This document shows positions 6,721-48,484 of a stretch of 64,000 nt of DNA, piece by piece. Made by a program: the position numbers and the translations under genes. The notes beneath the pieces are model-generated. The model saw nothing but the letters and a program-made list of their open reading frames with translations, did not search any database and was not told the origin of the DNA. Positions within the stretch are counted from its first letter, which is position 1. Each line of letters starts with the position of its first letter. Origin of the DNA: Calditrichota bacterium (GTDB lineage: Bacteria; Zhuqueibacterota; Zhuqueibacteria; Zhuqueibacterales; Geothermadaptataceae); NCBI GenBank assembly GCA_008501765.1, contig QQUE01000002.1, positions 244,336 to 308,335 of the forward strand. The letters run 5' to 3'.

Positions 6721-6750
6721 AAGCCACACTCGATCAAGTGTGGCTTTTTA
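6721..6750 (+). terminator. Rho-independent terminator after proS
   Basis: Hairpin AAGCCACACT-cgatca-AGTGTGGCTT followed by a T-run. Confidence 0.6.
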
Positions 6751-6855
6751 CTTTATATAGCGCCCATGTATTTTGCTGTTTTTTCATTTGGATTAAATTT
6801 ATACATTGATAGTCGTCATTTAGCAGCAAAGAGACTAATTGAGAGTTATTTTCAC

Positions 6856-8423: not shown

Positions 8424-8451
8424 ACAGGACTAACTTGTACTGGTTGCACCG

Positions 8452-8706
8452 GTGCCTACAATTCAATTACCTGGAATTATTTGGATGAAATGGATTTCAA
8501 TAGAAAAACTAGTTTTGATTGCTTCGGGGATTTTAGCCATCACTTTATTAAACCAATCCGCCCCTCCTCTGCTTGCTAAAGCTGGACTCACGGCTTTTTT
8601 CTCGGTAGCAATTTTTCAGCGCATAAAAGAAAAGGTTCCTCAACTGCTTGCCCAATCGATATTGTGGGCAGGAATGTTCGTCGCTTTTATTTATGAATTA
8701 TTCTGA
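8452..8706 (+). CDS. Small hypothetical membrane protein
   Basis: 84-aa ORF with two predicted TM helices directly downstream of era. No other support. Confidence 0.3.
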   Translation: MPTIQLPGIIWMKWISIEKLVLIASGILAITLLNQSAPPLLAKAGLTAFFSVAIFQRIKEKVPQLLAQSILWAGMFVAFIYELF

Positions 8707-8861
8707 AAAATTGTATAAAAATAAGTTTGTGAAACCGCTTCCAGCTTTTTCTTGCATTTTTATTAAAATATAATATTTTTCTTCTCATTGTTATTAATTT
8801 CTACTTACTTCTTCCGATTTTTAACAGGAAGCATTTAAATCAATTACAATAGGAAGTTTAG

Positions 8862-11414: not shown

Positions 11415-11417
11415 TCT

Positions 11418-11450
11418 AAAAAAAAGCCGGATTTACTCCGGCTTTTTTAT
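11418..11450 (+). terminator. Rho-independent terminator after glgP-like gene
   Basis: AAAAAAAGCCGGAtttaCTCCGGCTTTTTT: a perfect stem with A-tract and T-tract, which could function bidirectionally. Confidence 0.65.
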
Positions 11451-11948
11451 CGAAAATACATTTTTAACGAATGAGTAGCAATCCATCCTTCCATTTCCAG
11501 TAAAAGTAATTTATAATTTGGGTTGAGTTCTAGTTTTCCAGTAATACCACAAACTTCTACTACGCTCCCTTTTGGGATTTATGTAGTTTTTAGGTTTGTC
11601 AGTTTATAATCATGACATCTTTTCGGGATTAAATATAGTTTGCACATCAAAGTAATCCCAAAGAGGGTGCAACAATTATAACTGTAGTTAATATAATGAA
11701 TTAAAACCTGAAAGTGTGCAATAGATCATTGAAACTGGTAAAACAAACTTCCAGAGATAACTTCCACGTTAACAAACTTTTGTTTTTGTGGATCTTATAG
11801 GACAACCGAAGGATTGATTAGTTAAATAGTTGTTACAACAGGAAAATGCTGGGGATTTCATCTTGTTTTTTTGTCTATCATAATATTCGATATCCACAAT
11901 ATTTCTCGCCAAATTAATCTACTAACCAATCAAAACAGGAGGTACACT

Positions 11949-12353
11949 ATGCAGCGTTTCTGCCGTTTCTTTGTGGCAAACCGAAAATTGTTTCTCATTG
12001 GTTTGCTGATTTTTATGCTTTATGGTTTTCCGTCGTGTTGTGATGAGGATTCCGCAGTAAATGGACCCACGAACGAAAATTGTGATTATATAATTGAAGA
12101 AGATGGAATAATTTTTCAAACAGAAGTCGGAGAGGCCACGCAGTGGGGATTTTTAATTGAGAAAGAATCGGGGGATGAAGTGTTTGCTTTGTCCGATCCG
12201 CTCTTTCTCCCAAGAAACAACTTGCCATCCTTTTTACGTTCCGAAAGCTTAAAAGTACACATCGTCGGTGTAGCTGTTCCACCAGATATCGAAAATCCAA
12301 TAAATCAATGGGCAACACCACTATTAATTTTACGAATCAATACGATTGATTAA
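11949..12353 (+). CDS. Hypothetical lipoprotein
   Basis: Strong RBS (AGGAGG) 7 bp before the ATG at 11949. Signal peptide with a Cys-rich lipobox region (LLIFMLYGFPSCC). The longer annotated ORF (11871) lacks an RBS. Confidence 0.45.
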   Translation: MQRFCRFFVANRKLFLIGLLIFMLYGFPSCCDEDSAVNGPTNENCDYIIEEDGIIFQTEVGEATQWGFLIEKESGDEVFALSDPLFLPRNNLPSFLRSESLKVHIVGVAVPPDIENPINQWATPLLILRINTID

Positions 12354-12392
12354 TTTAATAACATAATGCACTTTTAAAAGGTGGGGTTGAAA

Positions 12393-14084
12393 ATGAAATA
12401 TAGAATATCAAATATTTACGTTTTACTATTGCTGCTTTTTAGTAACATCGCATTTGCTCAATTCAAGTGCGGAACAGAGAAAGGTGATCCTGCAAATACA
12501 CGAGGTAAATCCGAATTCAGTGGAATCAGCGAAAACTCGGGCAGCATTCCGGTCATATTCCATGTTATCTTTAATTCAAGCCAGGAAGGCAATATATCGA
12601 ACAGTACTATTGAAGCCCAGTTTAATGTTTTACAAAATAAGTTTTCAGGGCTGGGTTTTAGTTATTTCTTAGCTGGAATATCAAGAACGCAAAATAATAA
12701 TTGGTTTGAAATTACTGCTACAGGCGATGATGTCGATTCAATGAGAGAAAATTTGCATATTGACACAAGACGGGTATTAAATATTTACATAACAAAGTTA
12801 AGTGGTGATACTCAAGGTGTAGCGAAATATCCCTGGTTTAATGATTGGAAACAACACGGTGTTGTGATAGATTACCGGACTCTACCAGGCGGCTCACACC
12901 CAACAAAAAACCAGGGGAAAACATTAGTGCATGAAGTCGGCCATTTCTGGGGATTGATCCATCCGTGGGAGAACGAAGAATTTAAGTGTAATGAAATATA
13001 TGTACAAATGGGAGTGGACGAGTTTGTCTGGGGGGATGGTGTTTCGGATACTCCCATCCAGAAGTCGCCTACATATGGTTGTCCTTCATTTCATGATTCA
13101 TGCCAAAGTGAACCTGGAAATGATTCTGTGCATAACTATATGGATTATGCTGACGATCCTTGTATGTATGAATTCACCGACGGTCAAATCGACCGAATGA
13201 ACCTGAAACGGAGCGAATACCGCCCCAGCATCGGCGGCTCCACAATCTATATCACCGAAAATCTCGACATCGGTTCCAACCAATCCTACGAATTCCATGA
13301 AGGTACTTACAAGTTCGCTTCCGGCAAGAAAATCAACGTTGATGGTGAACTGAATGTCAATGGTTCTTCTTTCAATCCTGTTACGTTTACTTCCAGCGGC
13401 AGTTCATGGAACGGCATCTACTTTGCTTCAGGCAGCAATGGTTTAGTGGAATACACAAATATTGAAAATCTTACCGGAGGCTATTATTCCGGCGCTATCA
13501 CAATTTCCAACGCAACACCGGAATTTCAATACTGCAATATTGAAGTTACTACCGGTTCCAATGTTTTTGCTGTTTATCAATCCGGGAATTACGTCACACC
13601 AAGGTTTTACAAAAGCAAAATTAAAAGCAACTCCCAGTCGGCATTTAAAACCAGCGGTTCAAATGGCTATCTTTCTATCTATGACTGTGAAATTGTTCAA
13701 AACTCTGGTAATCCAGCGCTTGTTGCGAGCACCGGGATTATTGAATTCTGGCGGGCAGCCACTCATTACCAGGGTAAAAATAAAATCAAAGGCGGCAAGC
13801 TCTATGCTACCAATGCCGGTCTTATCCGTGCAGGCTTGTCTTCCGGGCAACGGGATATCAACCACTTTTGCGACAGCAACGCTTCAACCTTGTATGTTTC
13901 CAGTGGCGGTGTTATTTATGCAAAATACAACTACTGGTACAACGGCGCTCCACCCACACAAATCAACATGGGTGGTACTATCTACTACAGCAACAATCTT
14001 GGCTCTTCAAGCTGCTCCGGCATCTACAAAATCAAAGACAACCTAACATCAAATCCCCCCCATTTTTTAGTAAAACTGCTGTAA
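12393..14084 (+). CDS. Secreted zinc metalloprotease, M43 (pappalysin/cytophagalysin-like) family, with beta-helix-like C-terminal region
   Basis: Signal peptide MKYRISNIYVLLLLLFSNIAFAQ. Metzincin motif HEVGHFWGLIHPWE (HExxHxxGxxH). Gly/Ser/Asn-rich repetitive C-terminal part. The reading frame ends just after a C7-T6 homopolymer tract at 14055-14068. Confidence 0.8.
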   Translation: MKYRISNIYVLLLLLFSNIAFAQFKCGTEKGDPANTRGKSEFSGISENSGSIPVIFHVIFNSSQEGNISNSTIEAQFNVLQNKFSGLGFSYFLAGISRTQNNNWFEITATGDDVDSMRENLHIDTRRVLNIYITKLSGDTQGVAKYPWFNDWKQHGVVIDYRTLPGGSHPTKNQGKTLVHEVGHFWGLIHPWENEEFKCNEIYVQMGVDEFVWGDGVSDTPIQKSPTYGCPSFHDSCQSEPGNDSVHNYMDYADDPCMYEFTDGQIDRMNLKRSEYRPSIGGSTIYITENLDIGSNQSYEFHEGTYKFASGKKINVDGELNVNGSSFNPVTFTSSGSSWNGIYFASGSNGLVEYTNIENLTGGYYSGAITISNATPEFQYCNIEVTTGSNVFAVYQSGNYVTPRFYKSKIKSNSQSAFKTSGSNGYLSIYDCEIVQNSGNPALVASTGIIEFWRAATHYQGKNKIKGGKLYATNAGLIRAGLSSGQRDINHFCDSNASTLYVSSGGVIYAKYNYWYNGAPPTQINMGGTIYYSNNLGSSSCSGIYKIKDNLTSNPPHFLVKLL

Positions 14085-14926
14085 ATCAACAATTCAGTAA
14101 TATAAATAGCCAGCAATACAATTCTCCAACAGATTCAGACCTTTTCCATGCCAAAGATCTGGAGCTTTCCGGTCAAATCGAAGCTGCGGTTACGGCTTAC
14201 AAGGAAATTATTCTCAGCGGTAAAATGCCGGTGGCGCACACAGCTTTACTAGAATTGGGTGCTCTGAACGCAACGTTGAAATCAACAGAAACGATCGGGT
14301 TTTTCGAGAGCTTGATAGTGCAGAAATCGGCATTACAGCTTACGGCCATGTTGGTATCAGCGGGGCAATACAAGACTATGGGAGAAATGAAAATCGCTTT
14401 GCACTGGCTTGAGCAAATAAGTGCTACAGCGCCGGGCAGTACGGAAGATTTCAATGCGTGTATCAATCGTTTTCATATCTATTTTCTTACAGGTGATTTC
14501 TCAGCAGCGGCAAAAGAATTGGATGAAATCAAAGTAAAAGACAATGTAGAATATGTGGAATTGGCAAGTGCAGCTTCTTTGCTAGCTCTGGAACTGCCGG
14601 GCTATTCTTTGAAACAAAGAGCACCGGATTATGATGAGTTGGGATCTAAAAATATAGAATCACCTGCAGGTTTTGCTCTGCGCAACTATCCGAATCCATT
14701 TAATCCCGAAACCATCATTTCTTTCAACTCGCCCAGCAAATCCCATGTAAAGCTCAAGCTCTTCGACCTGCGTGGTCGTTTGCTGCGGATCCTGGTGGAT
14801 GAATCATTGCAAGAAGGAAATCATGAAATCTCTTTCGACGCACGGAATTTGGCCTCAGGGACCTATGTTTATACATTGGAAGCGAACGGACACAAGGAGT
14901 CGGCACGAATGACGATTCTGAAGTAA
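14051..14926 (+). CDS. C-terminal segment carrying a T9SS (Por) C-terminal sorting domain; probably the frameshifted continuation of the M43 protease gene
   Basis: Frame-2 translation after the poly-C tract is meaningful and ends with NYPNPFNPETIISFNSPSKSHVKLKLFDLRGRLLRILVDESLQEGNHEISFDARNLASGTYVYTLEANGH…, a typical T9SS CTD. It has no signal peptide or RBS of its own. The part of this ORF upstream of 14051 overlaps the protease in another frame and looks like noise. Confidence 0.6.
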   Translation, partial: KSPPFFSKTAVNQQFSNINSQQYNSPTDSDLFHAKDLELSGQIEAAVTAYKEIILSGKMPVAHTALLELGALNATLKSTETIGFFESLIVQKSALQLTAMLVSAGQYKTMGEMKIALHWLEQISATAPGSTEDFNACINRFHIYFLTGDFSAAAKELDEIKVKDNVEYVELASAASLLALELPGYSLKQRAPDYDELGSKNIESPAGFALRNYPNPFNPETIISFNSPSKSHVKLKLFDLRGRLLRILVDESLQEGNHEISFDARNLASGTYVYTLEANGHKESARMTILK

Positions 14927-24862: not shown

Positions 24863-26173
24863 ATGGTTACAGAATCCTTCAACAAACGTTTTTTTAAATT
24901 AGCAATTCCAAATATTTTAGCCAATATTTCAGTGCCGCTGGTAGGATTGGTCGATACCGCCATGCTTGGCCACCTCCCCGAAATTCATTTTCTCGCAGGC
25001 GTAGCGTTGGCATCCGTTCTGTTTGATTATATTTTCTGGACTTTCGGCTTTCTGCGCATGAGCACCACGGGCTTAACCGCCCAGGCAAGTGGCAAAAAAG
25101 ATATTCACGAAATTTACGCGATCTCCTATCGTGGGTTTGCCATCGCCTTGTTTGTCGGTTTGATACTAATTCTCTTTCGCAACATTATCTCTGCAACCGG
25201 TTTTGGTTTATTATCCGCCGAATCACTGGTAAAATTATCTGGTGAAGAATATTTCGCAGCCCGGATTTTAGGCGCGCCGGTCGTTTTGTGCAACTATGTT
25301 TTTGTGGGCTGGTTTCTCGGGCGCGAGCGCAGCGATTTGGTGCTGTACATGACGCTCGTCGGCAATGTCGCCAATGTCATTCTCAATTATATTTTCCTTT
25401 TTATCCTGGGACTGGCCGCCGCAGGTGTTGGTTGGGCAACTACAATCAGTAATATTTTGGCATTTTTTCTGGCTCTGGTTTTCTATAAATATGGCGCAAA
25501 AAAAATCAGCGTTGACTGGAAATCGGTGTTTACTCGCGAAAAACTTGTGCCTTTATTTAGCCTGAACCGGGATATTCTCATTCGCACATTATTTTTAATC
25601 AGTTCTTTCGGCGTATTCACAAATATCAGCTCGATTTTGGGCGTGTCCATTCTTGCTGTCAACACGATTATTTTACGAATTCTGTCTTTCGCAGCCTACC
25701 TGATCGACGGGATTGCTTTTGCAACCGAAAGCCTCGCCGGGATTTTCAAAGGCAGCAACGATCATCAATCGTTGAAAAAACTGCTAAAAACAGCCCTTTT
25801 ATGGGGTGAAGTTTTTGCCGTAGGGTTCATTGCGATTATGTTTTTAATACCCGATTATTTTTATCCCCTGATGACGTCACACGCTGATATAATTCAGCTT
25901 TTAAAAGTATACGATTACTGGGTTTATATCGCACTAATTTTTAGCGCCATCGCCTATATTTTTGATGGTTACTTTCTCGGCATCACCAATGCAAAAATAT
26001 TACGCAACAGCATGGTTCTCTGTTTTGTGGTGTTCTTTCTGCCGCTTGCCTGGCTCAGTGTCAAGCTGCACGATAATCACATTTTGTGGCTGGCGATGGT
26101 GGTATTTATGTTCGGCCGGGCAGCAACTTTGGGCTGGGGCGCATGGCGGGAAATTAAAATACGTGCAAGCTAA
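24863..26173 (+). CDS. MATE-family multidrug/oligosaccharidyl-lipid efflux transporter
   Basis: 436 aa with 12 predicted TM helices. N-terminal FFKLAIPNILANISVPLVGLVDTAMLGHL is a classic MATE (NorM/DinF) signature. Confidence 0.88.
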   Translation: MVTESFNKRFFKLAIPNILANISVPLVGLVDTAMLGHLPEIHFLAGVALASVLFDYIFWTFGFLRMSTTGLTAQASGKKDIHEIYAISYRGFAIALFVGLILILFRNIISATGFGLLSAESLVKLSGEEYFAARILGAPVVLCNYVFVGWFLGRERSDLVLYMTLVGNVANVILNYIFLFILGLAAAGVGWATTISNILAFFLALVFYKYGAKKISVDWKSVFTREKLVPLFSLNRDILIRTLFLISSFGVFTNISSILGVSILAVNTIILRILSFAAYLIDGIAFATESLAGIFKGSNDHQSLKKLLKTALLWGEVFAVGFIAIMFLIPDYFYPLMTSHADIIQLLKVYDYWVYIALIFSAIAYIFDGYFLGITNAKILRNSMVLCFVVFFLPLAWLSVKLHDNHILWLAMVVFMFGRAATLGWGAWREIKIRAS

Positions 26174-26267
26174 TTGGATTGAGGGATAATCACATTTTGT
26201 GACTGGCAATGGTGGTATTTATGTTCGGCCGGGCAGCAACTTTGGGCTGGGGCGCGTGGCGGGAGAT
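26072..26267. repeat. Tandem direct duplication (period 113 bp, ~83 bp duplicated) of the 3' end of the MATE gene
   Basis: 26072-26154 (within the CDS, ends ~20 bp before the stop) and 26185-26267 (after the stop) are ~95% identical (GATAATCACATTTTGTGRCTGGCRATGGTGGTATTTATGTTCGGCCGGGCAGCAACTTTGGGCTGGGGCGCRTGGCGGGA…). Confidence 0.7.
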
Positions 26268-26290
26268 GAAAGTGTAGCTATATTAACAAT

Positions 26291-27463
26291 TTAAATTTCT
26301 TCCAATAATGAAATCTTGTCAACTGTATCGATTAATATTCGTTTGTTAGCAGGATAGGATTTGAATAATTTACCTTGTGCTTCACTCATATTTGAGTAAA
26401 ACTTGGCTTCAATTAGTACCTTATCATCAGTGTAGAAATCAATTTCAATTGCATTTTCATACAAATAGTAAAGTTCTTTTTTATTGCGCATATTTATATA
26501 AACATAATTCTCAAAATAGCTCCCAATATCACGATTACCAACAAAAAGATATTTTATCCCCAAATCAGAAGCATAAATTTTTTTGGCGGAGAGCAACTTT
26601 TGATTTGTTTTACCCCATCGCGGCAACAAATGAATCAGATAGGTTGATTCGAAATAGTTCAAATATCTTTTTGAGGTATCTGGTGAAATCGCCAATATTT
26701 TACCTATTTTGTTAATGCTGAATTGCTTTCCGCTTCGCTCCATTAAAAGTGTAAAATAATCGCGTAAAATCTGGTGATTTTTTAATCCATGAAATGCAGT
26801 GATATCTTTCTGAATGATATCATCCACTAAATTCATCAAATATTCTCTGCTCGGCTGCAGCACATTCTCTGGTAATCCGCCTGTTTTTATATAATCGAGA
26901 AAATAAGTTTTAAGTAGTTGAACATCTCGCCTTTTTACTTCAATCCCTTTAAAGGAAAAATACTCATTTAAATCAAGTGGTTTTATTTCAAGTGTAATGG
27001 ACCTTCCAGTCAGGCTAGCCTTCTGGTCACGGAGTTTTGAGGCAGAAGATGATGCAACAAATATTTTAGCATTTTGTGAATCGTAGAGATTTTTAAGTTG
27101 GACTTGAAACTCATCCTTTGATGTTACTTCATCAAAAAAGAGATAAATTCTTTCATCGATCGTTATTTTATGCAGTTTTCGATATTCATTGACAATCTCT
27201 ATCATGCTTTGCTTCTGAATCAAATAATCATCCAGGCTAATGTAAAAAATATGCTTTGGTTGCACTTCTTTTGAAATCAATTCATCAATTATCAATTTCA
27301 TTAAACTCGTTTTCCCAACTCGGCGCAACCCTGTTAGAATAATGATTTGTTTCTGTTGTAGATATATTCGAAGATCGGAAAGATATTGTTCGCGTGGTTT
27401 CAAGTCAGCCGCAGCACGACTTTTCTCCCACCACGGGTTATACTGGTAAAGTAAATCATTCAT
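26291..27463 (-). CDS. AAA+ ATPase of the DUF4143/AAA_14 (COG1373-like) family
   Basis: MNDLLYQYNPWW…IIILTGLRRVGKTSLMKLII (P-loop) with a C-terminal DUF4143-like region. This family is widespread and often accessory. Confidence 0.75.
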   Translation of the reverse strand: MNDLLYQYNPWWEKSRAAADLKPREQYLSDLRIYLQQKQIIILTGLRRVGKTSLMKLIIDELISKEVQPKHIFYISLDDYLIQKQSMIEIVNEYRKLHKITIDERIYLFFDEVTSKDEFQVQLKNLYDSQNAKIFVASSSASKLRDQKASLTGRSITLEIKPLDLNEYFSFKGIEVKRRDVQLLKTYFLDYIKTGGLPENVLQPSREYLMNLVDDIIQKDITAFHGLKNHQILRDYFTLLMERSGKQFSINKIGKILAISPDTSKRYLNYFESTYLIHLLPRWGKTNQKLLSAKKIYASDLGIKYLFVGNRDIGSYFENYVYINMRNKKELYYLYENAIEIDFYTDDKVLIEAKFYSNMSEAQGKLFKSYPANKRILIDTVDKISLLEEI

Positions 27464-42284: not shown

Positions 42285-42986
42285 TTAATCAATATCTTTG
42301 ACACAGCGAAAACCAACCGGATAACGAGCGGTTGTGTGGGGCGGGACATAATACCGATGTGTTGTTCGAATAAAGGAATGGTTATTAAAATTGGATCCAC
42401 CGCGCATCACTTTATAGCGTTCCCCGTATTCTTTCATAGGAACATCATTTCCCGGATAAGGTTTGTACCAGTCCGCTGTCCATTCCCACACGCTGCCGGC
42501 CATATCAAAGCAACCGTATGGGCTTTCCGGTTTGGCGATGGCGCTTCCGCGTGGATGGCGTAAATCCCAAACGACAAAAGTCTCATCATAAGTATTGCCC
42601 CAGGGGAAAATACGACCATCGGTACCGCGAGCCGCTTTTTCCCACTCTTTTTCTGTGGGCAATCGCTTACCCGCCCACTTCGCGTAGGCGTTCGCCTGTT
42701 CCCATATGACAATCACTGGATGCTCTTCTCTTCCTTGAGGAAAATTAAAGTTAGCATCAAATTGCGCAAACTCAGAATTGCTCACTTCATATTTATCAAT
42801 AAAAAAAGCTCCTGTTCTGGCAATGTGTTGCGGCCTCTCATCGGGATCGCCATAAGTGCTCCCCATGATAAAATCGCCAGCCGGGACATAGACCATGCCT
42901 TGCGGTGGTTCAGGTTCTCCATTTACTTTTTCGTTTGCGCTTGGCGCCGTCAAACAAAGGTACATTATAAACAAGAGTGTTTTCAT
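42285..42986 (-). CDS. FGE-sulfatase (SUMF1-like) domain protein, paralog of 6856-7521
   Basis: Signal peptide. …GMVYVPAGDFIMGS…FFIDKYEVSNSEFAQF…KWAGKRLPTEKEWEKAARGTDGRIFPWGN…GSVWEWTADWY…VMRGGSNF…RYPVGFRC is the full FGE-sulfatase signature. Confidence 0.8.
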   Translation of the reverse strand: MKTLLFIMYLCLTAPSANEKVNGEPEPPQGMVYVPAGDFIMGSTYGDPDERPQHIARTGAFFIDKYEVSNSEFAQFDANFNFPQGREEHPVIVIWEQANAYAKWAGKRLPTEKEWEKAARGTDGRIFPWGNTYDETFVVWDLRHPRGSAIAKPESPYGCFDMAGSVWEWTADWYKPYPGNDVPMKEYGERYKVMRGGSNFNNHSFIRTTHRYYVPPHTTARYPVGFRCVKDID

Positions 42987-43100: not shown

Positions 43101-43478
43101 TCACTGGTCACTGGTCACTTCAATATAAACATGTTCGAGGCTTATTTCCCGCAGTGAAACCGAAGAAACCGGCACGCCATCCAGCTTTCCGATGAATTCT
43201 TTCAGCGTGAAAATTTGCGGCAAAAGCAACGCCGCGCCGATGAGAATGCCCGGCACCGTCGCATCGAATGATTTTGAGTCATTGATTCCGCCAGCGTAAA
43301 TGAGCCCGAAAAGCAGCAGCGTGGGGAAAACCACCCAGAAAACCAGGCTACGCCGCATGCGCAGCAACTCTGTCAAAATACGTTTGGTGATCGCGATTAC
43401 TTCATTGAACTGGTGTTGCATGAAAACACCTCTTTCTGCTAATGAGAGCTGAGAATTAGAGAAAATTATCCACTTCAT
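43101..43478 (-). pseudogene. Possible truncated ABC-2-type permease remnant
   Basis: The N-terminus (…ITKRILTELLRMRRSLVFWVVFPTLLLFGLIY) resembles the start of ABC-2 permeases. The ORF stops after 125 aa and has no ATPase partner nearby. Confidence 0.3.
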
Positions 43479-43711
43479 TCAGTAAATGTTCCCGTGATTT
43501 CATGACAAATCACAGACATTTTCTCTCTCAAATGCGTCACCCCGGTTTGCGCTTTTCGCAATTCTGGGGTCTCCCAAAGTTTGAGTCTGACACCGGGGGA
43601 TCCCGGTATTTCACTTTGTGAAAACCGGGATGACCGGAATACTATTTTATCGTTTCTAATTTAAACTGTGACTAATCTGTTCCACACTAAATTCCTGATC
43701 GATTAGAGCGC

Positions 43712-44846
43712 TTTGCAGGCCACAAGGGCCTGGGCTACAGGTTCAAACTAAAAAAATGGTGTTCGCCCCCTTGTGGGGCGGTACGTGGCATGGGCATTTA
43801 TTTGCCGCCTTTTATTTTATCCAACAAACTCTGTAAATTCTTCTGCACCGTTTGCGTGCCGGGATGGTCAGGTTTGCAGGCCACAAGGGCCTGGGCTACA
43901 GTATTAATATAAATAAAATTTCGTAGCCCGCCCCTTTGTGGGGCGGCGCGTGGCATGGGCATTTATTTGCCGCCTTTTATTTGTTCCAACAATCTTTGCA
44001 AATTACCCTGCACGGTTTGTGTGCCGGGATGGTCAGTTTTGCAGGCCACAAGGGCCTGGGCTACAGTATTAATATAAACAAAATTTCGTGGCCCGCCCCT
44101 TTGTGGGGCGGCGCGTGGCATGGGCATTTATTTGCCGCCTTTTATTTTATCAAACAAAATCTGCAAATTCTTTTGCACCGTTTGTGTGCCGGGATGGTCA
44201 GGTTTGCAGGCCACAAGGGCCTGGGCTACAGTATTAATATAAACAAAATTTCGTGGCCCGCCCCTTTGTGGGGCGGCGCGTGGCATGGGCATTTATTTGC
44301 CGCCTTTTATTTGTTCCAACAATCTTTGCAAATTACCCTGCACGGTTTGTGTGCCGGGATGGTCAGTTTTGCAGGCCACAGTATTAATATAAACAAAATT
44401 TCGTAGCCCGCCCCCTTGTGGGGCGGTGCGCGGCATGGGCATTTATTTGCCACCTTTTATTTGTTCCAACAATCTTTGCAAATTACCCTGCACGGTTTGT
44501 GTGCCGGGATGGTCAGTTTTGCAGGCCACAAGGGCCTGGGTTACAGGTTCAAACTAAAAAAATGGTATTCGCCCCCTTGTGGGGCGGTGCGTGGCATGGG
44601 CATTTAGTTGCCGCCTTTCATTTCATCCAATAAACTCTGTAAATTCTTTTGCACCGTTTGTGTGCCGGGATGGTCAGGTTTGCAGGCCACAAGGGCCTGG
44701 GTTACAGTATTAATATAAACAAAATTTCGTAGCCCGCCCCCTTGTGGGGCGGTGCGCGGCATGGGCATTTATTTGCCGCCTTTTATTTTACCCAACAAAC
44801 TTTGCAAATTACGCTGCACCGTTTGTGTGCTGGGATGGTCAGCGCC
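43712..44846. repeat. Tandem array of ~7 units (165/161/150 bp) each reproducing the last ~24 codons + stop + 3'-UTR hairpins of the adjacent TIR-NB-ARC-TPR gene
   Basis: Units start at 43712, 43873, 44038, 44203, 44368 (15-bp deleted variant), 44518 and 44679; the last unit is the real gene end. Two sequence types alternate (…AGTATTAATATAAACAAAATTTCGT… versus …AGGTTCAAACTAAAAAAATGGT…). On the minus strand each unit reads as a C-terminal peptide variant followed by TAA (QRNLQSLLGKIKGGK*, QGNLQRLLEQIKGGK*, QKNLQSLLDKIKGGK*, QKNLQSLLDEMKGGN*). A GC-rich hairpin (CCGCCCC-acaa-GGGGCGG) with a U-rich tail and a second hairpin (CAGGCC-cuugu-GGCCUG) follow each peptide. Confidence 0.9.
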
Positions 44847-47240
44847 CAGTTTTTCATTAACAATTTCCAGCGCCCGACGATAGAGCGGTTCCACGGTGGT
44901 CAAATCGCCTTTGTCCTGCAGCAATCCCGCCAGGTTGTTGAGATCAATTGCTACATCTGGATGATCCTGCCCCAATGCTTTTTCATCGATTTCTAGCGCC
45001 CGGCGGTAGAGCGGCTCCGCAGCGTTCAAATCGCCTTTGTCCTGCAGCAATCCCGCCAGATTGTTGAGCCTTAGAGCAACTTTCGGGTGATCCGGCCCCA
45101 ACGTTTTTTCACCTATTTCCAGCGCCCGGCGGTAGAGCGGCTCCGCGGCGGTCAATTCGCCTTTGGCCCGCAGCAATCCCGCCAGGTTGTTGAGCCTTAG
45201 AGCAATTTTCGGGTGATCCGGCCCCAATGTTTTTTCACCGATTTCCAGTGCCCGGCGGTAGAGCGGTTCCGCAGCGGTCAAATCGCCTTTGGCCCGCAGC
45301 AATCCTGCCAGGTTGTTGAGATCAATTGCTACATCGGGATGATCCTGCCCCAATGCGTTTTCATCGATTGCCAGCGCCCGGCGGTAGAGCGGCTCCGCCG
45401 CGATCAAATCGCCTTTGTCCTGCAGCAAATTCGCCAGGTTGTTGAGCCGAATGGCCACAGCCTCGTGTTCAAAGCCTCGCACTTTTTCGTCAATTTTCAG
45501 CGCCCGCCGGTAGAGCAGTTCTGCGGCGGCGTAGCGGGCCTGGCTCTGTAAAAAAAGTGCCATTTGATTTTGCAGGGTGGCGGTTTCTGTTAGCTGCAGA
45601 CCGTGGCGCGCAGCATGATCCGTCACACTCAATCCATGTGGTAAAAGCCTTTCACAATCTGGCCATGAACGGTAGTCCAGCGGATCCGTGTCTGAAGGAA
45701 AAACAGCATTTACCAATTCAACCGCTTTTTCAGCGATTGTCGCATATTTTTTCTCTGGCAAGCGATCGCGGGTCACGGCCTGCACCAGGCGGTGGCAGTT
45801 TAAATGATTGTCCTGCAAATCAATCAAAGCATAGCGCCGCAGCAAAGCCAAGGTTTCCTGCCATGCCAGCGGATCGGCCACTTTCTTTTGCAGACTGGCG
45901 GGCAGTTTGTCGCCCGCTGCGGTAAACAATTCCAGTGGAATATCTTGCGGCGCTAAAAAAGCGCATAAATTAAGCAATTCAATAGCAGCTTTATTTTCAT
46001 TTTTTAACTGCAGAAACGCCATTTCCCAGGCTGTGGCCACGGTTTCCGGGTAATCGGGTGGCTGGCCTTTTTTGAGCAATCTTTTCCGTTGGCCGGTAAA
46101 CAGTTTCAAATAAGCAGAAAAATCCAGGGCGCTGGCTTCCATGTACGCCGCTGCCTGTTCCAGCGCCAGCGGCAAATCGCCGAGGGCTTCAGCAACCTCA
46201 TGCGCCCCTTTTTCATCGTCGCAGCCGCTGCGCTGCCGCAGAAAAGCCACAGACTCGTCACGGTCGAGCACTTCCACGCTCAACGGCTGCGCCAATCCGC
46301 GCCAGTTGGGGCTGCGCGAGGTGAGAATCACGTGTCCGGCACCGCCCTGGGGCACAAACGGGCGCACGGCGTCGGCTTTTTCCACGTTGTCAAAAATCAG
46401 CAGCCAGCTCTGCGCACTGCCAAACCAGCGCAGCACAGCGTCTATTTTTGCATCCTGCTCGCGGGTGTCTTTTTCGGGCAGATCGAACCAATGTGCCAGC
46501 TCCGCTATTTCTCCGGCGAGCACCTGCGGTTCTTCAGCATTGAGCCAACAGATACAAGCGTATTCATTTTTGTGGCGGTGGGCGTATTCCAGGGCAATTT
46601 GCGTTTTGCCAATGCCGCCGAGTCCGTGTATCGCCTGCGGTTGGGTCACAGCGGCGTTTTTGCCGGCAGCCAGGGTGGTGTGCAAATCGGCTAAAATTTG
46701 TTCACGGCCGGTAAAATTGGGGTTGCGCAAAAAAGGCACTTTCCAAACCGGCGGCAGACTGCCGGGGAAACGGGGTTCGGGGCGTGATGCAGAAATTGTG
46801 GCCGGAAACGCTGGTTCCGTAGCTGGTTTGCCGCGTGCGTCAGTTAGCGCCTTGTCTATTTCATGCAGCAAAAAATCACAAGCATCTGAATTATTTTTTC
46901 CAACCAGATCGATATAAACGATGGCTTTTAGCATTCCTTTAAGTTCACATTTCTCAATGCACACAGGCAGAAGTTTTCTGTCCGTCCCGGTGGGATCATC
47001 CGCAAATGCAGCGGCCCATTCTGGCTGGGTGTAAATGGCGTTGAGAAAATGAGGTGATAAAACAGCGACCGTGCGGCGCGCTTCGGTGGCTGCCCTCTGC
47101 ATTTCGAGTACAAAATTGCTGCCTGCATGAAAATCCCATGCCTGGATAATTAATGAATAATCCGCTTTTTCAAGTTGCCAGGCAATCCATTCGGCCCACG
47201 CCTTGTCCGCGCGGGTGTAACTGATAAAAAAATCTTTCAC
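44769..47240 (-). CDS. TIR-NB-ARC-TPR STAND NTPase (bacterial NLR-like; candidate antiphage defence protein)
   Basis: N-terminal TIR_2-type domain (FISYTRADKAWAEWIAWQLEKADYSLIIQAWDF…NFVLEMQRA…TVAVLSPHFLNAIYTQPEWAAAF). NB-ARC P-loop GLGGIGKTQIALEYA, Walker B LLIFDNVE, VILTSR and GDLPLAL (GLPL) motifs. A C-terminal array of at least 7 near-identical 42-aa TPR repeats (…AAEPLYRRALEIGEKTLGPDHPKIALRLNNLAGLLRAKGELT…). Confidence 0.9.
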   Translation of the reverse strand: MKDFFISYTRADKAWAEWIAWQLEKADYSLIIQAWDFHAGSNFVLEMQRAATEARRTVAVLSPHFLNAIYTQPEWAAAFADDPTGTDRKLLPVCIEKCELKGMLKAIVYIDLVGKNNSDACDFLLHEIDKALTDARGKPATEPAFPATISASRPEPRFPGSLPPVWKVPFLRNPNFTGREQILADLHTTLAAGKNAAVTQPQAIHGLGGIGKTQIALEYAHRHKNEYACICWLNAEEPQVLAGEIAELAHWFDLPEKDTREQDAKIDAVLRWFGSAQSWLLIFDNVEKADAVRPFVPQGGAGHVILTSRSPNWRGLAQPLSVEVLDRDESVAFLRQRSGCDDEKGAHEVAEALGDLPLALEQAAAYMEASALDFSAYLKLFTGQRKRLLKKGQPPDYPETVATAWEMAFLQLKNENKAAIELLNLCAFLAPQDIPLELFTAAGDKLPASLQKKVADPLAWQETLALLRRYALIDLQDNHLNCHRLVQAVTRDRLPEKKYATIAEKAVELVNAVFPSDTDPLDYRSWPDCERLLPHGLSVTDHAARHGLQLTETATLQNQMALFLQSQARYAAAELLYRRALKIDEKVRGFEHEAVAIRLNNLANLLQDKGDLIAAEPLYRRALAIDENALGQDHPDVAIDLNNLAGLLRAKGDLTAAEPLYRRALEIGEKTLGPDHPKIALRLNNLAGLLRAKGELTAAEPLYRRALEIGEKTLGPDHPKVALRLNNLAGLLQDKGDLNAAEPLYRRALEIDEKALGQDHPDVAIDLNNLAGLLQDKGDLTTVEPLYRRALEIVNEKLGADHPSTQTVQRNLQSLLGKIKGGK
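44855..45560. repeat. Intragenic 126-bp near-identical tandem DNA repeats encoding the TPR units
   Basis: A repeating block (…CAGCGCCCGGCGGTAGAGCGGCTCCGCRGCGGTCAAWTCGCCTTTGKCCYGCAGCAATCCCGCCAGGTTGTTGAG…) is visible about 5-6 times. The same periodicity appears in the antisense ORF translations. Confidence 0.8.
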
Positions 47241-47267
47241 GTGATCTCCCCAATCAATTTAAACTAA

Positions 47268-47534
47268 TGATTGTGACCCTAGCTCCGCTGTACTTAATCT
47301 AATTGCAAAATTTTTAATGTGTTGTGCATTTTCTTTTTTGCTTGATCAAAAAAGAAACAAAAAAATCAAGGCTGACGAAAAATCGGCTAAACTTTTTGAG
47401 AATTTCCTAAATCATTTTAAACTCGCTGCGCTCGAACAAAAAATGATTCTTAACGGAAATTCTCAAAAAGTTCTTAACGCCATTTTTCGAAGGCCGTTTA
47501 AGAAAAAGACCGCGGAGCTAAAGGCCTAATCAAT
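47268..47534 (+). mobile_element. MITE-like element, copy B (~267 bp), 25 bp upstream of the STAND gene start; TSD TAAACTAA/TAAACTAT
   Basis: Near-identical to the reverse complement of 4657-4943. Imperfect TIRs. 8-bp flanking direct repeat with 7/8 match. Confidence 0.7.
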
Positions 47535-47779: not shown

Positions 47780-48484
47780 TCACCGCCGCGCTGTTTGCAG
47801 CATTTTGGCGGCCCACTGCTGCAGCGGCAGCATGGTTTTACAAATATTGAGGCAGAAATCGATGATATCGGGTGAATAAAGTTCGGCTGGAACGGAATTT
47901 TCCCAAAACGCCGATACGCCGTTTAAGCGTAATAATTCTTCATACTTTGAATCAGCGTCAAAACCGCGGGGCACCCGCTTGTAGTGCGGCTGCTGCAGTT
48001 GCAAGTCGCTTTTGCGCACCGCGTCCAGAATTTTCAGCAATGCGTCGCCGTTGGCCGCTTTGTTCACATAATCGCGGTAAAACGGCAGCACCTCTTTACC
48101 AAAAATGTGGGAGCCCGAGCCCAGCATCAATTTGTCTTTGGTCAAACTGAAATAAAAGCCGGAATTTTCGACGCGGGATTTGCCAGTGCCCTGCCAGAAC
48201 CAGATGGCGAGATTGGTTTTGTAAGGCGTCTTGTTGGCGCTAAAACGGGTATCGCGGTAAATGCGAAACAGCGATTTGTTGACGCGCGGATCGGCATTGA
48301 TTTCCGGAATCCAAACTTTGAGTCTTTCACCCATCGCCACAATAAACTGCCGTGCCGGTGCGAGTACAAATTCTTCGTATTCCGATTTGTGCTCATCGAA
48401 CCACGGTTTGTTGTTATTCTCCGTGAGATCTGTTAAAAATGTGACCGCTTCTTTTGGAAATCCGGCAAAGTTTTGAGCTGGCAT
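47780..48484 (-). CDS. DUF2461 (TIGR02453) family protein
   Basis: FLTDLTENNNKPWFDEHKSEYEEFVLAPARQFIVAM… RFSANKTPYKTNLAIWF matches the conserved DUF2461 pattern (F…L..NN...WF..H...Y......P…DTRFS.DK.PYK). Confidence 0.65.
   Translation of the reverse strand: MPAQNFAGFPKEAVTFLTDLTENNNKPWFDEHKSEYEEFVLAPARQFIVAMGERLKVWIPEINADPRVNKSLFRIYRDTRFSANKTPYKTNLAIWFWQGTGKSRVENSGFYFSLTKDKLMLGSGSHIFGKEVLPFYRDYVNKAANGDALLKILDAVRKSDLQLQQPHYKRVPRGFDADSKYEELLRLNGVSAFWENSVPAELYSPDIIDFCLNICKTMLPLQQWAAKMLQTARR

What the first reader, a model, noticed from the sequence alone, without database searches (positions are those of the whole stretch)
44769..47240. TIR-NB-ARC-TPR STAND NTPase: bacterial NLR-like, probable antiphage or abortive-infection effector
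Domain order TIR (FISYTRADKAW…AWDF…NFVLEMQRA…VLSPHFLNAIYTQPEW) - NB-ARC (P-loop, hhhhD, TSR, GLPLAL) - TPR sensor repeats mirrors plant TNL receptors and bacterial Avs/NLR-like defence proteins. A conserved Glu sits in the NFVLEMQRA segment, the position of the catalytic Glu in TIR NADases; that assignment is inference. The gene is a single-gene island flanked by a MITE and by repeat arrays. Its sensor region consists of near-identical repeats, so it is highly recombinogenic.
Basis: partly seen in the sequence, partly recalled or inferred. Interest (0 to 1): 0.7.

Follow-up and report, generated by a model that had tools for sequence, protein, structure and literature searches.

The report
Bacterial TIR–NB-ARC–TPR NLR-like gene
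This is an intact gene for a bacterial NLR-like protein (a TIR enzyme head, an ATP-driven switch and a TPR repeat sensor); it belongs to a very large, already catalogued family, so it is ordinary for its kind, apart from an unexplained array of copies of its own 3' end just downstream.

Summary
The ORF at 44769-47240 (minus strand, 823 aa) is real. It has the stated order: TIR_2, NB-ARC/AP-ATPase, a helical linker (DUF7779), then five to six 42-aa kinesin-light-chain-type TPRs. All NTPase motifs are intact and the AlphaFold model is confident (pLDDT 92).

It is a new member of a huge known family. NCBIfam NF040586 'fxsT' scores 474 bits against a cut-off of 300, and 9,304 cluster representatives match at E<=1e-30. 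Its best relative is only about 53% identical.

- The likely catalytic Glu is E74 (TQPEW, start of helix aC, conserved in 117/118 homologues), not E46 (NFVLEMQRA, helix aB).
- The TPR repeats are 68-93% identical in DNA, not near-identical.

The flanking MITE is confirmed (265 bp, inverted ends, 10-bp target duplication, second copy in the window). There is no defence island and no Fxs or vWA-MoxR partner, and PADLOC matches only the TIR, weakly. The gene is solitary and has the highest GC in the window. No phage genome carries a homologue, and one homologue lies beside restriction and DGR genes on a conjugative plasmid.

The most likely function is a ligand-triggered, oligomerising NAD+-consuming suicide/immune sensor. 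This is inferred, not shown.

Unexplained: seven spacer repeats alternate with six extra copies of the gene's last 24 codons, and those copies diverged in a coding-like pattern.

The parts
44769..47240 (-). Complete gene: TIR - NB-ARC (AP-ATPase) - DUF7779 - TPR protein, 823 aa, GTG start, TAA stop
   Evidence: ORF list. Exact match to the NCBI protein 'MAG: TIR domain-containing protein [Calditrichaeota bacterium]' on a 1.3-Mb contig. AF2 model pLDDT 92, pTM 0.76.
47246..47251 (-). Shine-Dalgarno-like GGGGAG, 5 nt upstream of the GTG start
   Evidence: Read directly from the sequence. The N-terminus MKDFFISY matches the family consensus.
46878..47231 (-). TIR domain (aa 4-121)
   Evidence: Pfam TIR_2, E 5e-32. 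A profile of the domain hits solved TIRs, including the NADases AbTIR, TIR-APAZ, Cat1 and SARM1/TIR-1. bA-aE secondary structure appears in the model.
47019..47021 (-). Codon of E74 (TQPEW): the predicted catalytic glutamate
   Evidence: Glu in 117/118 homologues. Lies at the N-terminal end of helix aC. Aligns with the Glu of TLR 'WCxYEL'. The Y70xxxE74 spacing resembles the WxxxE motif of bacterial TIR NADases (my knowledge).
47103..47105 (-).
   Evidence: Lies in helix aB. Glu in only 85/118 homologues, with D/N/A/Q in others. Aligns with a Lys of SARM1 aB.
45636..46727 (-). STAND NTPase module (aa 172-535): NB-ARC plus helical/winged-helix part (DUF7779)
   Evidence: NCBIfam NF040586: 473.6 bits against a cut-off of 300, best stretch aa 172-535. 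Pfam NB-ARC aa 203-368 and DUF7779 aa 412-498. Foldseek matches to RPP1 core, CED-4 and STAND-TPR 6mfv.
46602..46625 (-). Walker A / P-loop GLGGIGKT (aa 206-213)
   Evidence: G206, G208, G209, G211 and K212 are invariant in 118 homologues.
46386..46403 (-). Walker B LLIFDN (aa 280-285). D284 is invariant. The second acidic residue is replaced by Asn, as in 114/118 homologues.
44772..45533 (-). TPR sensor: five 42-aa TPR_10/12 units (aa 570-779) plus a C-terminal capping half-repeat (aa 780-823). A degenerate unit lies upstream (aa 527-569).
   Evidence: Pfam TPR_12/TPR_10. Kinesin light chain TPR hits, E 1e-49. TRF period 126, 4.7 copies, 84% matches. Pairwise identity 68-93% nt with a mosaic of variant blocks.
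43712..44840 (-). Tandem array built on the gene's 3' end. Seven ~93-nt spacers (GC hairpin CCGCCCCACAAGGGGGCGG, a T-rich tract, and in six of the seven a second hairpin that the 78-nt spacer 3 lacks) alternate with the gene's own tail and six further 72-nt copies of its last 24 codons.
   Evidence: TRF period 165, 7.0 copies, 85% matches. Unit dissection. The hairpin occurs only here in the window, 7/7 hits. The tails have a coding-type substitution pattern and the spacers do not.
47268..47532 (.). MITE-like element between the upstream DUF2461 gene and the TIR gene's start
   Evidence: A second, inverted copy lies at 4659-4943 (91% identity, with a 20-nt insertion). Ends are TGATTGTGACCyTAGCTCCGC / TGATTAGGyCTTTAGCTCCGCGG. 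The 10-bp TSD ATAAATCAAT is perfect at copy 2 and imperfect at copy 1.

Best explanation
**Shown.** The gene encodes a solitary, intact STAND NTPase of the AP-ATPase/NB-ARC clade, with an N-terminal TIR domain and a C-terminal kinesin-light-chain-type TPR array. It is a divergent member of the very large bacterial family that NCBI names FxsT.

**Inferred, by analogy with Avs proteins, bNACHT proteins and plant TNL/TNP receptors.**
- In the resting state the TPR array and the ADP-bound NB-ARC keep the protein monomeric.
- A specific peptide or protein ligand, most likely from an invading phage or other mobile element, binds the concave TPR surface.
- This allows nucleotide exchange at the P-loop (K212) and oligomerisation.
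- Oligomerisation brings the TIR domains together to form composite active sites around E74.
- The assembled TIRs hydrolyse NAD+. Because no partner effector gene is present, the most likely output is NAD+ depletion with growth arrest or death of the infected cell (abortive infection).

The gene was probably acquired horizontally and sits in ordinary chromosomal DNA next to a MITE.
For: **Identity**
- HMM hits; model pLDDT 92; fold matches to the RPP1 TIR-NB-ARC core, CED-4, STAND-TPR 6mfv and KLC TPRs.

**Integrity of the functional residues across 118 homologues**
- P-loop K212: 118/118.
- Walker B D284: 118/118.
- Sensor R309: 115/118.
- MHD-like H483: 116/118.
- TIR E74: 117/118.
- TIR S7, D12, W35, D36 and G40: nearly invariant.

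**TIR family**
- A profile of the TIR domain hits solved NADase TIRs: AbTIR, TIR-STING, TIR-APAZ, Cat1 and SARM1/TIR-1.

**Single-gene system**
- No conserved neighbour in five unrelated homologue loci.

**Mobility and conflict flavour**
- GC 0.537 against 0.445 +/- 0.032, the highest of the 35 genes measured.
- MITE at the 5' flank.
- No relative above about 53% identity among 5.8 billion clusters.
- 236 plasmid records carry relatives. The best is on a conjugative Prosthecochloris plasmid, beside a restriction endonuclease, recombinases and a DGR.

**Repeat sensor**
- The number of 126-nt units varies from about 3 to 10 in the five homologue loci whose full TPR region was scanned, at 69-88% identity.
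- The variant blocks inside this gene occur in all four combinations, a four-gamete pattern.

**Literature**
- TIRs in single-protein STANDs are treated as NAD+-depleting effectors (bioRxiv 10.64898/2025.12.03.692087).
- A plant TIR-NBARC-TPR protein kills cells in a way that depends on its P-loop and catalytic Glu (PMC9806590).
- TPR-bearing STANDs sense phage proteins (PMC13581612).
Against: - Nothing here is experimental. I found no paper reporting a phage-defence test of an NB-ARC-TPR/FxsT-type protein.
- PADLOC 2.0 gives no hit outside the TIR, and only weak hits there (best E 4e-6).
- No neighbour within 10 kb matches a defence model, and the whole window is housekeeping.
- The homologues examined are mostly among metabolic genes too.
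- The second Walker B acidic residue is Asn in 114/118 members, so ATP hydrolysis may be weak or absent.
- TIR domains can also act as signal generators or scaffolds, and sequence alone cannot distinguish these roles.
- My direct alignments to catalytic Glu residues of proven NADases were incomplete (SARM1) or statistically weak (RPS4).
Confidence: 0.6

Rival explanations
1. The TIR makes a nucleotide signal (a cADPR isomer, His-ADPR or similar) that activates a separate effector encoded elsewhere in the genome. This would be Thoeris-like or plant TNL-like signalling rather than NAD+ depletion.
For: The TIR domain and E74 are equally compatible with cyclase or transferase chemistry. Signalling TIRs are widespread (bioRxiv 10.64898/2025.12.03.692087). 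Only 64 kb of a contig longer than 1.3 Mb was inspected.
Against: No candidate signal-sensing effector (SLOG, Macro, STALD, caspase-like and so on) appears in the window or next to homologues in five other loci. Known signalling TIR systems are operonic.
Confidence: 0.15
2. It is the effector arm of a multi-gene 'FxSxx-COOH' peptide-processing / vWA-MoxR ternary conflict system, as described for actinobacteria. Its TPRs would bind a processed C-terminal peptide made by partner genes.
For: The NCBIfam FxSxx_TPR model scores 473.6 bits against a cut-off of 300. Kaur et al. 2020 (PMC7159879) describe a TIR-AP-ATPase-TPR gene downstream of FxSxx peptide systems. The TPRs are of the peptide-binding kinesin-light-chain type.
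Against: None of the roughly 40 large ORFs in the 64-kb window is a radical SAM/SPASM maturase, a vWA or MoxR protein, or a zincin peptidase adjacent to the gene. The homologues examined in five other loci lack these partners too. The micro-ORFs downstream end in KGGK/KGGN, not FxSxx.
Confidence: 0.08
3. It has a non-immune role. It could be a STAND-type regulator or scaffold acting in stress response, development or kin discrimination, with the TIR serving as an interaction module or a metabolic NADase.
For: The neighbourhood is housekeeping. Non-defence STAND clades are interspersed with defence clades (PMC13581612). The family is enriched in bacteria with complex life styles (PMC7159879).
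Against: There is no DNA-binding or other output domain besides the TIR. The catalytic-position Glu is conserved in 117/118 homologues, which argues for enzymatic use. The patchy distribution, plasmid carriage and atypical GC argue against a core cellular role.
Confidence: 0.12
4. It is a decaying or inactive remnant of a horizontally acquired gene. The MITE and the 3' repeat array would then be signs of a junk region.
For: The gene is flanked by a MITE and a repeat array, and its GC is atypical.
Against: The ORF is full-length and co-linear with homologues from residue 1 to the conserved capping motif. Every catalytic or switch residue is intact. A Shine-Dalgarno-like motif is present. The model is confident throughout.
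Confidence: 0.03

Closest known systems
NCBIfam NF040586 FxsT, 'FxSxx-COOH system tetratricopeptide repeat protein' (PGAP gene name fxsT)
   Same: The model scores 473.6 bits against a cut-off of 300 over the NTPase module. The best annotated relative is fxsT on Prosthecochloris aestuarii plasmid pPAES01: 48% identity over aa 2-539, with the same TIR-NTPase-TPR order. Many top hits carry this name.
   Different: The partners that give the family its name (FxSxx-COOH peptide, radical-SAM maturase) are absent from the 64-kb window and from the homologue loci examined. The family name is a context-derived label, not a tested function.
TIR-AP-ATPase-TPR effectors of vWA-MoxR (VMAP) ternary / peptide-processing conflict systems (Kaur, Burroughs, Iyer & Aravind 2020, PMC7159879)
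   Same: Identical domain architecture. Both are predicted NAD+-directed TIR effectors controlled by an AP-ATPase switch and TPRs.
   Different: Those are embedded in multi-gene systems, mostly in actinobacteria. This one is solitary, in a Calditrichota MAG.
Plant TNP proteins (TIR-NBARC-TPR, formerly XTNX), e.g. maize ZmTNP-IIa (PMC9806590)
   Same: Same three-part order with TPRs rather than LRRs. NB-ARC motifs (P-loop, TTR/TSR, GLPL, MHD) are shared. ZmTNP-IIa cell death needs the P-loop and the TIR catalytic Glu.
   Different: According to that paper, similarity between bacterial and plant proteins lies in the NB domain only, and the TIRs and TPRs group apart. I did not test orthology.
Plant TNL resistosomes RPP1 / ROQ1
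   Same: Foldseek aligns about 550 columns of the model to the RPP1 TIR-NB-ARC core (7dfv, E 1.5e-9). The logic is oligomerisation-activated TIR NADase.
   Different: The sensor is TPR, not LRR plus C-JID. Sequence identity is 12-13%. There is no EDS1-type downstream pathway in bacteria.
Bacterial Avs (AVAST) and bNACHT antiphage STAND proteins
   Same: Single-polypeptide effector-NTPase-repeat sensor. TPR-like sensors bind phage proteins and trigger tetramerisation (PMC13581612; bioRxiv 10.1101/2022.07.19.500537).
   Different: They belong to different STAND clades. No PADLOC Avs, bNACHT or TIR-NLR model matches this protein. Avs genes are typically in defence islands, and this gene is not.
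Fungal and bacterial NLR-like proteins with highly internally conserved TPR/ANK/WD repeats (Dyrka et al. 2014, as cited in PMC9806590)
   Same: NB-ARC plus 42-aa TPR units with high unit-to-unit identity, variable unit number and a mosaic of variants, which suggests repeat shuffling.
   Different: I did not test for positive selection on ligand-facing positions. Only five units are present here.
Displaced or silent 3'-end cassettes: Rhs/CdiA orphan C-terminal tips, Neisseria pilS, 3'-end duplicates at integration sites such as icd/e14 (my knowledge). This comparison concerns the downstream array only.
   Same: Extra promoter-less copies of a gene's 3' end lie downstream in the same orientation. 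They differ mainly at synonymous sites.
   Different: The copies are only 24 codons long (one capping helix), carry no toxin or immunity module, and are separated by a conserved 93-nt hairpin element. No recombinase is nearby. A similar duplicate follows an unrelated MatE gene.

Membership tests
STAND NTPase, AP-ATPase / NB-ARC clade | Pfam NB-ARC (PF00931) hit above the gathering score | tested here: met
   26.3 bits against 23.5, aa 203-368, E 5e-6. The margin is small. NCBIfam NF040586 over aa 172-535 is far stronger.
STAND NTPase, AP-ATPase / NB-ARC clade | Walker A, Walker B, sensor TTR/TSR, GLPL and MHD-type His motifs in order | tested here: met
   GLGGIGKT 206-213, LLIFD284N, TSR 307-309, GDLPLAL about 354-360, CHR 482-484. 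K212 and D284 are invariant, R309 is 115/118 and H483 is 116/118. The second Walker B acidic residue is Asn.
STAND NTPase, AP-ATPase / NB-ARC clade | NBD-HD1-WHD fold like Apaf-1 / CED-4 / plant NLRs | tested here: met
   Foldseek: CED-4 (4m9s, 2a5y; E about 1e-8 to 1e-7), RPP1 core (7dfv; 1.5e-9), STAND-TPR 6mfv (5e-12).
STAND NTPase, AP-ATPase / NB-ARC clade | Nucleotide-dependent oligomerisation | not testable with these tools
   Needs biochemistry or cryo-EM.
TIR-domain NADase | TIR fold / Pfam TIR_2 | tested here: met
   E 5e-32. A profile of the domain hits more than 50 solved TIR chains. The bA-aE topology appears in the model.
TIR-domain NADase | Catalytic Glu at the start of helix aC (SARM1 E642, AbTIR E208, plant 'WCxxEL') | tested here: met
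E74: 117/118 conserved, at the aC N-terminus, aligned with the TLR WCxYEL Glu. The direct alignment to SARM1 stopped before aC. The alignment to RPS4 placed E74 on the catalytic Glu but with only 1.4% probability.
TIR-domain NADase | NAD+ cleavage activity | not testable with these tools
   Needs an enzyme assay.
FxSxx-COOH system (NCBIfam fxsT context) | NF040586 score above the curated cut-off | tested here: met
   473.6 bits against 300.
FxSxx-COOH system (NCBIfam fxsT context) | Neighbouring FxSxx-COOH precursor peptide, radical-SAM/SPASM maturase or zincin peptidase | tested here: not met
   No such Pfam family in any large ORF of the 64-kb window. The rest of the genome was not seen.
vWA-MoxR (VMAP) ternary conflict systems (Kaur 2020) | Adjacent vWA, MoxR AAA+ and VMAP genes | tested here: not met
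   Absent from the window.
Avs / bNACHT / TIR-NLR defence systems as defined in PADLOC-DB 2.0 | Match to the system's NTPase HMM | tested here: not met
   Only four weak hits, all within aa 3-112 (PDC-S66, two Aga TIR models, bSEFIR).
Defence-island gene | Known defence genes within about 10 kb | tested here: not met
   Zero PADLOC hits at E<=1e-5 for ten neighbours. One homologue on a plasmid does lie beside a restriction enzyme and a DGR. Five other homologues do not.
Plant TNL | C-terminal LRR (plus C-JID) sensor | tested here: not met
   The C-terminus is TPR_10/TPR_12 and there is no LRR hit. The architecture matches TNP, not TNL.
MITE (the upstream flank) | Small non-autonomous element, at least 2 copies, terminal inverted repeats, target-site duplication | tested here: met
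   265 and 285 bp, two copies in 64 kb, TIRs of about 23 bp, perfect 10-bp TSD at copy 2 and imperfect TSD at copy 1. No transposase family was assigned.

The most novel reading that the evidence does not exclude
The 165-nt array behind the gene is not debris. It would be a bank of silent 3'-end cassettes that exchange with the expressed end by gene conversion, or alternatively a set of translationally coupled micro-ORFs. Six extra copies of the last 24 codons, which encode the capping helix of the TPR sensor, are kept in frame with their stop codons and diverge in a protein-coding pattern. The 93-nt hairpin elements between them are conserved at the nucleotide level. Either version would let an NLR-like sensor vary or regulate its C-terminal cap, a mechanism not described for STAND proteins.
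Probability: 0.07. Interest if true: 0.7.

Novelty: new member of a known kind. Interest (0 to 1): 0.3.

Why it matters
As a gene, it adds one divergent Calditrichota member, at most about 53% identical to anything known, to a family with thousands of members that is computationally well described but, as far as I could find, experimentally untested.

The family matters because it has the same TIR-NBARC-TPR layout as the most conserved plant TIR proteins (TNPs). It is abundant, and its trigger and output are unknown. A solitary, compact 823-aa member with all motifs intact is a reasonable candidate for heterologous testing.

Correcting the catalytic residue from E46 to E74 matters for anyone designing that experiment.

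The coding-like divergence of the duplicated 3' tails, seen at two genes in the window, is a small genome-evolution puzzle. If it is real and general, it points to a recurrent process that duplicates or replaces gene 3' ends in this lineage.

Tried and rejected
1. **Synteny test for island presence or absence.** A genome-contig scan with the adjacent DUF2461 protein found its closest relative (66% identity) on a 3.3-kb Calditrichaeota contig, too short to be informative.
2. **Metagenome scans.** Exact-pattern scans for the array spacer and for the tail both returned nothing. I therefore have no independent copy of the array and no strain comparison.
3. **Rfam and tRNA scans of the window.** Both returned nothing. 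The spacer hairpin did not meet the strict terminator consensus, and the fold z-score of one unit was unremarkable (-1.15).
4. **Micro-ORF hypothesis.**
   - In favour: five of the seven units are intact 49-54-aa ORFs from their own ATG, each with an SD-like AAGGCGG 7 nt upstream.
   - Against: none of these sequences is in the 15-billion-protein collection and no homologue exists. The spacer part shows no third-position bias.
I corrected this in the notebook.
5. **DGR-type template/variable repeat.** Rejected. The differences are not adenine-specific and there is no reverse transcriptase in the window.
6. **CRISPR-like or integron-like reading of the array.** Rejected. The variable segments are all homologous to each other and to the gene's end.
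7. **The 156-aa plus-strand ORF at 43936-44406.** It is just the antisense reading of the in-phase array, and the codon-position bias fits the minus-strand (gene) frame.
8. **Direct alignment of the TIR profile to proven NADase catalytic residues.** The SARM1 alignment ended before aC. The RPS4 alignment agreed with E74 but was not significant.
9. **3'-end arrays in homologues.** I looked downstream of the homologue gene in seven loci and found none.
10. **Phage carriage.** No homologue in 50,697 phage genomes. There were only 9 weakly supported loci among 2.9 million IMG/VR contigs.

Full report
**1. The observation**

An uninterrupted 823-aa ORF lies at exactly 44769-47240 on the minus strand. 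It starts with GTG, with a GGGGAG Shine-Dalgarno-like motif 5 nt upstream (sequence). Its N-terminus MKDFFISY matches the consensus of its homologues.

Pfam gives the following:
- TIR_2 at aa 4-121 (E 5e-32).
- NB-ARC at aa 203-368, just above the gathering score (26.3 bits against 23.5).
- DUF7779 at aa 412-498.
- Six stretches of TPR_10/TPR_12 (E 1e-60 and 3e-69).

NCBIfam NF040586, 'FxSxx-COOH system tetratricopeptide repeat protein', covers the NTPase module much more strongly (473.6 bits, cut-off 300). The exact protein is already deposited as 'MAG: TIR domain-containing protein [Calditrichaeota bacterium]' on a 1.3-Mb contig.

**2. Structure and motifs**

An AlphaFold2 model built on 118 homologues is confident (mean pLDDT 92, pTM 0.76). 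Foldseek against the PDB returns:
- kinesin-light-chain TPR domains (E 1e-12);
- an archaeal STAND-TPR protein, 6mfv (711 aligned columns);
- the TIR-NB-ARC core of the plant TNL RPP1, 7dfv (about 550 columns, E 1.5e-9);
- CED-4.

The switch motifs are all present:
- Walker A GLGGIGKT, with K212 invariant in 118/118.
- Walker B LLIFD284, with D284 invariant. The next residue is Asn in 114/118, so the second acidic residue typical of NB-ARC is replaced across the family.
- TSR, with R309 in 115/118.
- GDLPLAL.
- An MHD-like CHR, with H483 in 116/118.

**3. The catalytic glutamate**

The evidence is against that:
- In the model, E46 lies in helix aB.
- It is Glu in only 85/118 homologues, with D, N, A or Q in others.

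E74 in TQPEW fits instead:
- It is conserved in 117/118 homologues.
- It sits at the N-terminal end of aC.
- It aligns with the Glu of the TLR 'WCxYEL' motif, both in a single-sequence alignment and in a profile alignment.
- From established knowledge, this aC position holds the catalytic Glu of SARM1, of AbTIR (the WxxxE motif) and of plant TIRs (WCxxEL). Y70xxxE74 reproduces that spacing.
- The TIR profile also hits solved NADase TIRs: AbTIR, TIR-STING, TIR-APAZ, Cat1 and SARM1/TIR-1.
- An alignment to the RPS4 TIR put E74 on the catalytic Glu, but with negligible probability. I give it little weight.

**4. The repeat sensor**

Five good 42-aa TPR units (aa 570-779) and a capping half-repeat follow a degenerate unit.
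- Pairwise DNA identity between units is 68-93%. Only two pairs exceed 90%, and the longest exact shared run is 30 nt. 'Near-identical' is therefore overstated.
- From my knowledge, 30 nt is close to the minimum for efficient RecA-dependent exchange.
- Two variant blocks (IDE..GQDHPDVAID against IGE..GPDHPK[IV]ALR, and QDKG against RAKG) occur in all four combinations among units 612, 654, 696 and 738. This is a four-gamete pattern that suggests past exchange between units.
- All seven homologue loci I inspected have such 126-nt arrays, at 69-88% identity. Five were scanned across the whole TPR region and carry about 3-10 units. At L086 only the last 300 nt of the gene was scanned.
- Variable, internally conserved repeats are therefore a family trait.

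**5. Family size and names**

- The word-indexed search returned 7,329 proteins at E<=1e-10 among 8,000 candidates. Nearly all of the top 120 have TIR_2 + DUF7779 + TPR, and all are 39-53% identical to the query.
- An exhaustive search with aa 1-540 against 1.84 billion 50%-identity representatives gave 9,304 hits at E<=1e-30. Almost all of the best 150 cover residues 1-540. The best identity was 52%.
- Hosts named in the hits include Chloroflexota, Thermodesulfobacteriota, Acidobacteriota, Actinomycetota, Alphaproteobacteria and a Methanosarcinaceae archaeon.
- Kaur et al. 2020 (PMC7159879) already describe the TIR-AP-ATPase-TPR architecture, linked to FxSxx peptide-processing and vWA-MoxR systems in actinobacteria.
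- Johanndrees et al. 2022 (PMC9806590) note bacterial TIR-NB-TPR proteins when defining plant TNPs, which share this layout. They show that a maize TNP kills cells in a way that depends on its P-loop and catalytic Glu.
- The closest plant analogue is therefore TNP, not TNL.

**6. Context**

- Ten neighbours within about 10 kb are a beta-lactamase-fold protein, an FGE-sulfatase-fold protein, DUF2461, a TonB-dependent receptor, DUF4249, a histidine kinase and proteins with no family match.
- None of the ten matches a PADLOC model at E<=1e-5.
- The rest of the window is housekeeping: ProRS, Era-like GTPase, glycogen phosphorylase, P-type ATPase, FabI-like reductases, PspA, acetyl-CoA synthetase and others.
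- No radical-SAM, vWA, MoxR or adjacent zincin peptidase gene is present, so membership of an FxSxx or VMAP system fails on context here.
- PADLOC hits to the protein itself are weak and confined to the TIR.
- Homologues in five unrelated loci are also solitary among metabolic genes.
- A 48%-identical fxsT on the conjugative Prosthecochloris aestuarii plasmid lies beside a restriction endonuclease, two recombinases and a diversity-generating retroelement.
- No homologue exists in 50,697 phage genomes. There are 9 loci among 2.9 million IMG/VR contigs. Relatives occur on 236 plasmids, 150 of them from Streptomyces.
- The gene has the highest GC of the 35 genes measured in the window (0.537 against 0.445 +/- 0.032; GC3 z = 2.3).
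- Taken together, this is a patchily distributed, horizontally mobile single-gene system. It is not a housekeeping gene, and it is not in a defence island.

**7. Flanks**

*Upstream.* A 265-bp MITE-like element (47268-47532) sits 28 nt from the start codon. A 91%-identical inverted copy lies at 4659-4943, upstream of proS. The ends are imperfect inverted repeats of about 23 bp. Copy 2 has a perfect 10-bp target-site duplication (ATAAATCAAT), and copy 1 has an imperfect one.

*Downstream.* TRF finds a 165-nt array with 7.0 copies at 43712-44842. Read on the gene's strand, it has this structure:
- The gene's own last 24 codons (tail0) are followed by seven spacers that alternate with six further 72-nt tail copies.
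- The spacers are about 93 nt long (78-93 nt).
- Each spacer carries a GC hairpin (CCGCCCCACAAGGGGGCGG) and a T-rich tract. Six of the seven also carry a second hairpin, which the 78-nt spacer 3 lacks.
- Each tail copy keeps its reading frame and its stop codon.
- The first hairpin occurs nowhere else in the window.

**8. The array is not simple decay**

- Among the seven tails, 19 nucleotide columns vary, and 13 of these are third codon positions in the gene's frame (binomial p = 0.0019). pN/pS is 0.39.
- The amino-acid positions that vary are those that also vary across the family's cap motif DHPxTxxVRxNLxxL.
- The four gap-free spacers vary at only 7 of 93 columns, with no third-position bias (5, 1 and 1 at frame positions 1, 2 and 3). 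The tails that follow those spacers vary at 12 of 23 third positions (Fisher p = 5e-6).
- The spacers are therefore conserved at the nucleotide level and the tails at the protein level.
- Each unit starts with ATG directly after the preceding TAA, with an SD-like AAGGCGG 7 nt upstream. Five of the seven units are intact 49-54-aa ORFs.
- These peptides are absent from the 15-billion-protein collection and have no homologues.
- Seven homologue loci lack any such array, and no metagenome contig holds the spacer or the tail.
- A systematic scan of 40 genes found one more case and no 5'-end case. The MatE gene (24863-26173) is followed, 11 nt after its stop, by a copy of its last ~87 nt. All five differences in that copy are at third codon positions, and one of them creates a stop codon.
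- The process therefore looks genome-wide rather than specific to the NLR-like gene. Candidate processes are import of diverged allelic 3' ends by homology-facilitated illegitimate recombination, or repeated integration events that supply replacement 3' ends.
- That lowers the odds that the array is a dedicated cassette bank. I leave it unexplained.
- An assembly artefact seems unlikely given the many specific differences between copies, but I could not exclude it without reads.

**9. Mechanism**

*Shown:* the domain identities, the intact switch and catalytic-position residues, and the solitary, mobile context.

*Inferred by analogy:* the TPR array holds the NB-ARC in an off state. Binding of a foreign protein or peptide permits nucleotide exchange and oligomerisation, as in Avs tetramers, plant resistosomes and the apoptosome. 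The clustered TIRs then form active sites around E74 and consume NAD+. With no partner effector gene, depletion with growth arrest is the most economical output.

*Rivals:* TIR signalling to a distant effector, an FxSxx/vWA-MoxR-linked role, a non-immune regulatory role, and gene decay. These are listed with their tests.

**10. Verdict**

- The catalytic residue and the 'near-identical repeats' statement need correction.
- The gene is a new, divergent member of a known and very large family. It is of modest interest in itself.
- It comes with a curious side observation on 3'-end duplications that is worth a look in the raw reads.

Noticed in passing
window 43712-44840 (minus strand): The gene's last 24 codons are followed by seven ~93-nt hairpin spacers that alternate with six further in-frame copies of those 24 codons. 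The tails differ mostly at third codon positions (13/19 variable columns, p = 0.002; pN/pS 0.39). The spacers are more conserved than the tails and show no coding signature (7/93 against 12/23 third positions, p = 5e-6). The origin is unexplained.
   Followed up: yes
window 26072-26271 (plus strand): The MatE-family gene (24863-26173) is followed, 11 nt after its stop, by a 94%-identical copy of its last ~87 nt. All five differences are at third codon positions, and one of them creates a premature stop. This is the same kind of 3'-end duplicate as behind the TIR gene. Two of 40 genes show it, and none of 40 shows a 5'-end equivalent.
   Followed up: partly
window 44768, 44442, 44292, 44127 and 43962 (unit ATGs, minus strand): Five tandem micro-ORFs of 49-54 aa (MPMPR...NFVYINTV...DHPGTQTVQ...KGGK) each start at an ATG fused to the previous stop (TAAATG), with an SD-like AAGGCGG 7 nt upstream. 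They are absent from public protein collections and have no homologues.
   Followed up: yes
window 47268-47532 and 4659-4943: A 265/285-bp MITE-like element is present in two inverted copies, one just upstream of the TIR gene and one upstream of proS. It has TIRs of about 23 bp, a 10-bp TSD and internal self-complementarity. Both copies hold a spurious-looking 70-76-aa ORF. No transposase family was assigned.
   Followed up: partly
window 43936-44406 (plus strand): A 156-aa ORF with a periodic sequence (MWGGAWHGHLFAAFY...) is only the antisense reading of the 165-nt array, which is a multiple of three. It could be mis-called as a gene.
   Followed up: yes
window 44769-47240 and 47780-48484: The TIR gene has the highest GC in the window (0.537 against a mean of 0.445). 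The upstream DUF2461 gene, on the same strand, has the highest GC3 (0.583). The two may have arrived together or be co-transcribed across the MITE.
   Followed up: no
window 43101-43478 (minus strand) and 43480-43710: A 125-aa ORF with no Pfam, NCBIfam or PADLOC match lies just beyond the array. It is followed by an AT-rich stretch with short palindromes (e.g. ACCGGGGGATCCCGGT). This may be a gene remnant marking the other edge of the inserted segment.
   Followed up: no
window 26291-27463 (minus strand); L086 14541-15767: An AAA_14/DUF4143 ATPase gene is in the window, about 17 kb from the TIR gene. A DUF4143 protein also sits directly next to the fxsT homologue on the Prosthecochloris plasmid. 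This is possibly coincidence.
   Followed up: no
L086 (NC_011061.1, Prosthecochloris aestuarii pPAES01) 3725-14343: The closest annotated homologue (fxsT, 48% identity) lies in a cluster with a restriction endonuclease, two recombinases and a DGR (Avd, reverse transcriptase, two FGE-family target proteins) on a conjugative plasmid.
   Followed up: partly
proteins P0126, P0130, P0131, P0147, P0207: Some family members carry an extra 200-345-aa N-terminal region ahead of the TIR domain. I did not identify its nature.
   Followed up: no
window 6691-7521 and 42285-42986: There are two separate FGE-sulfatase-fold proteins in one window. Their best NCBIfam similarities are to GldK/EgtB-type proteins, all below cut-off. 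No reverse transcriptase is nearby, so there is no sign that they are DGR targets.
   Followed up: no
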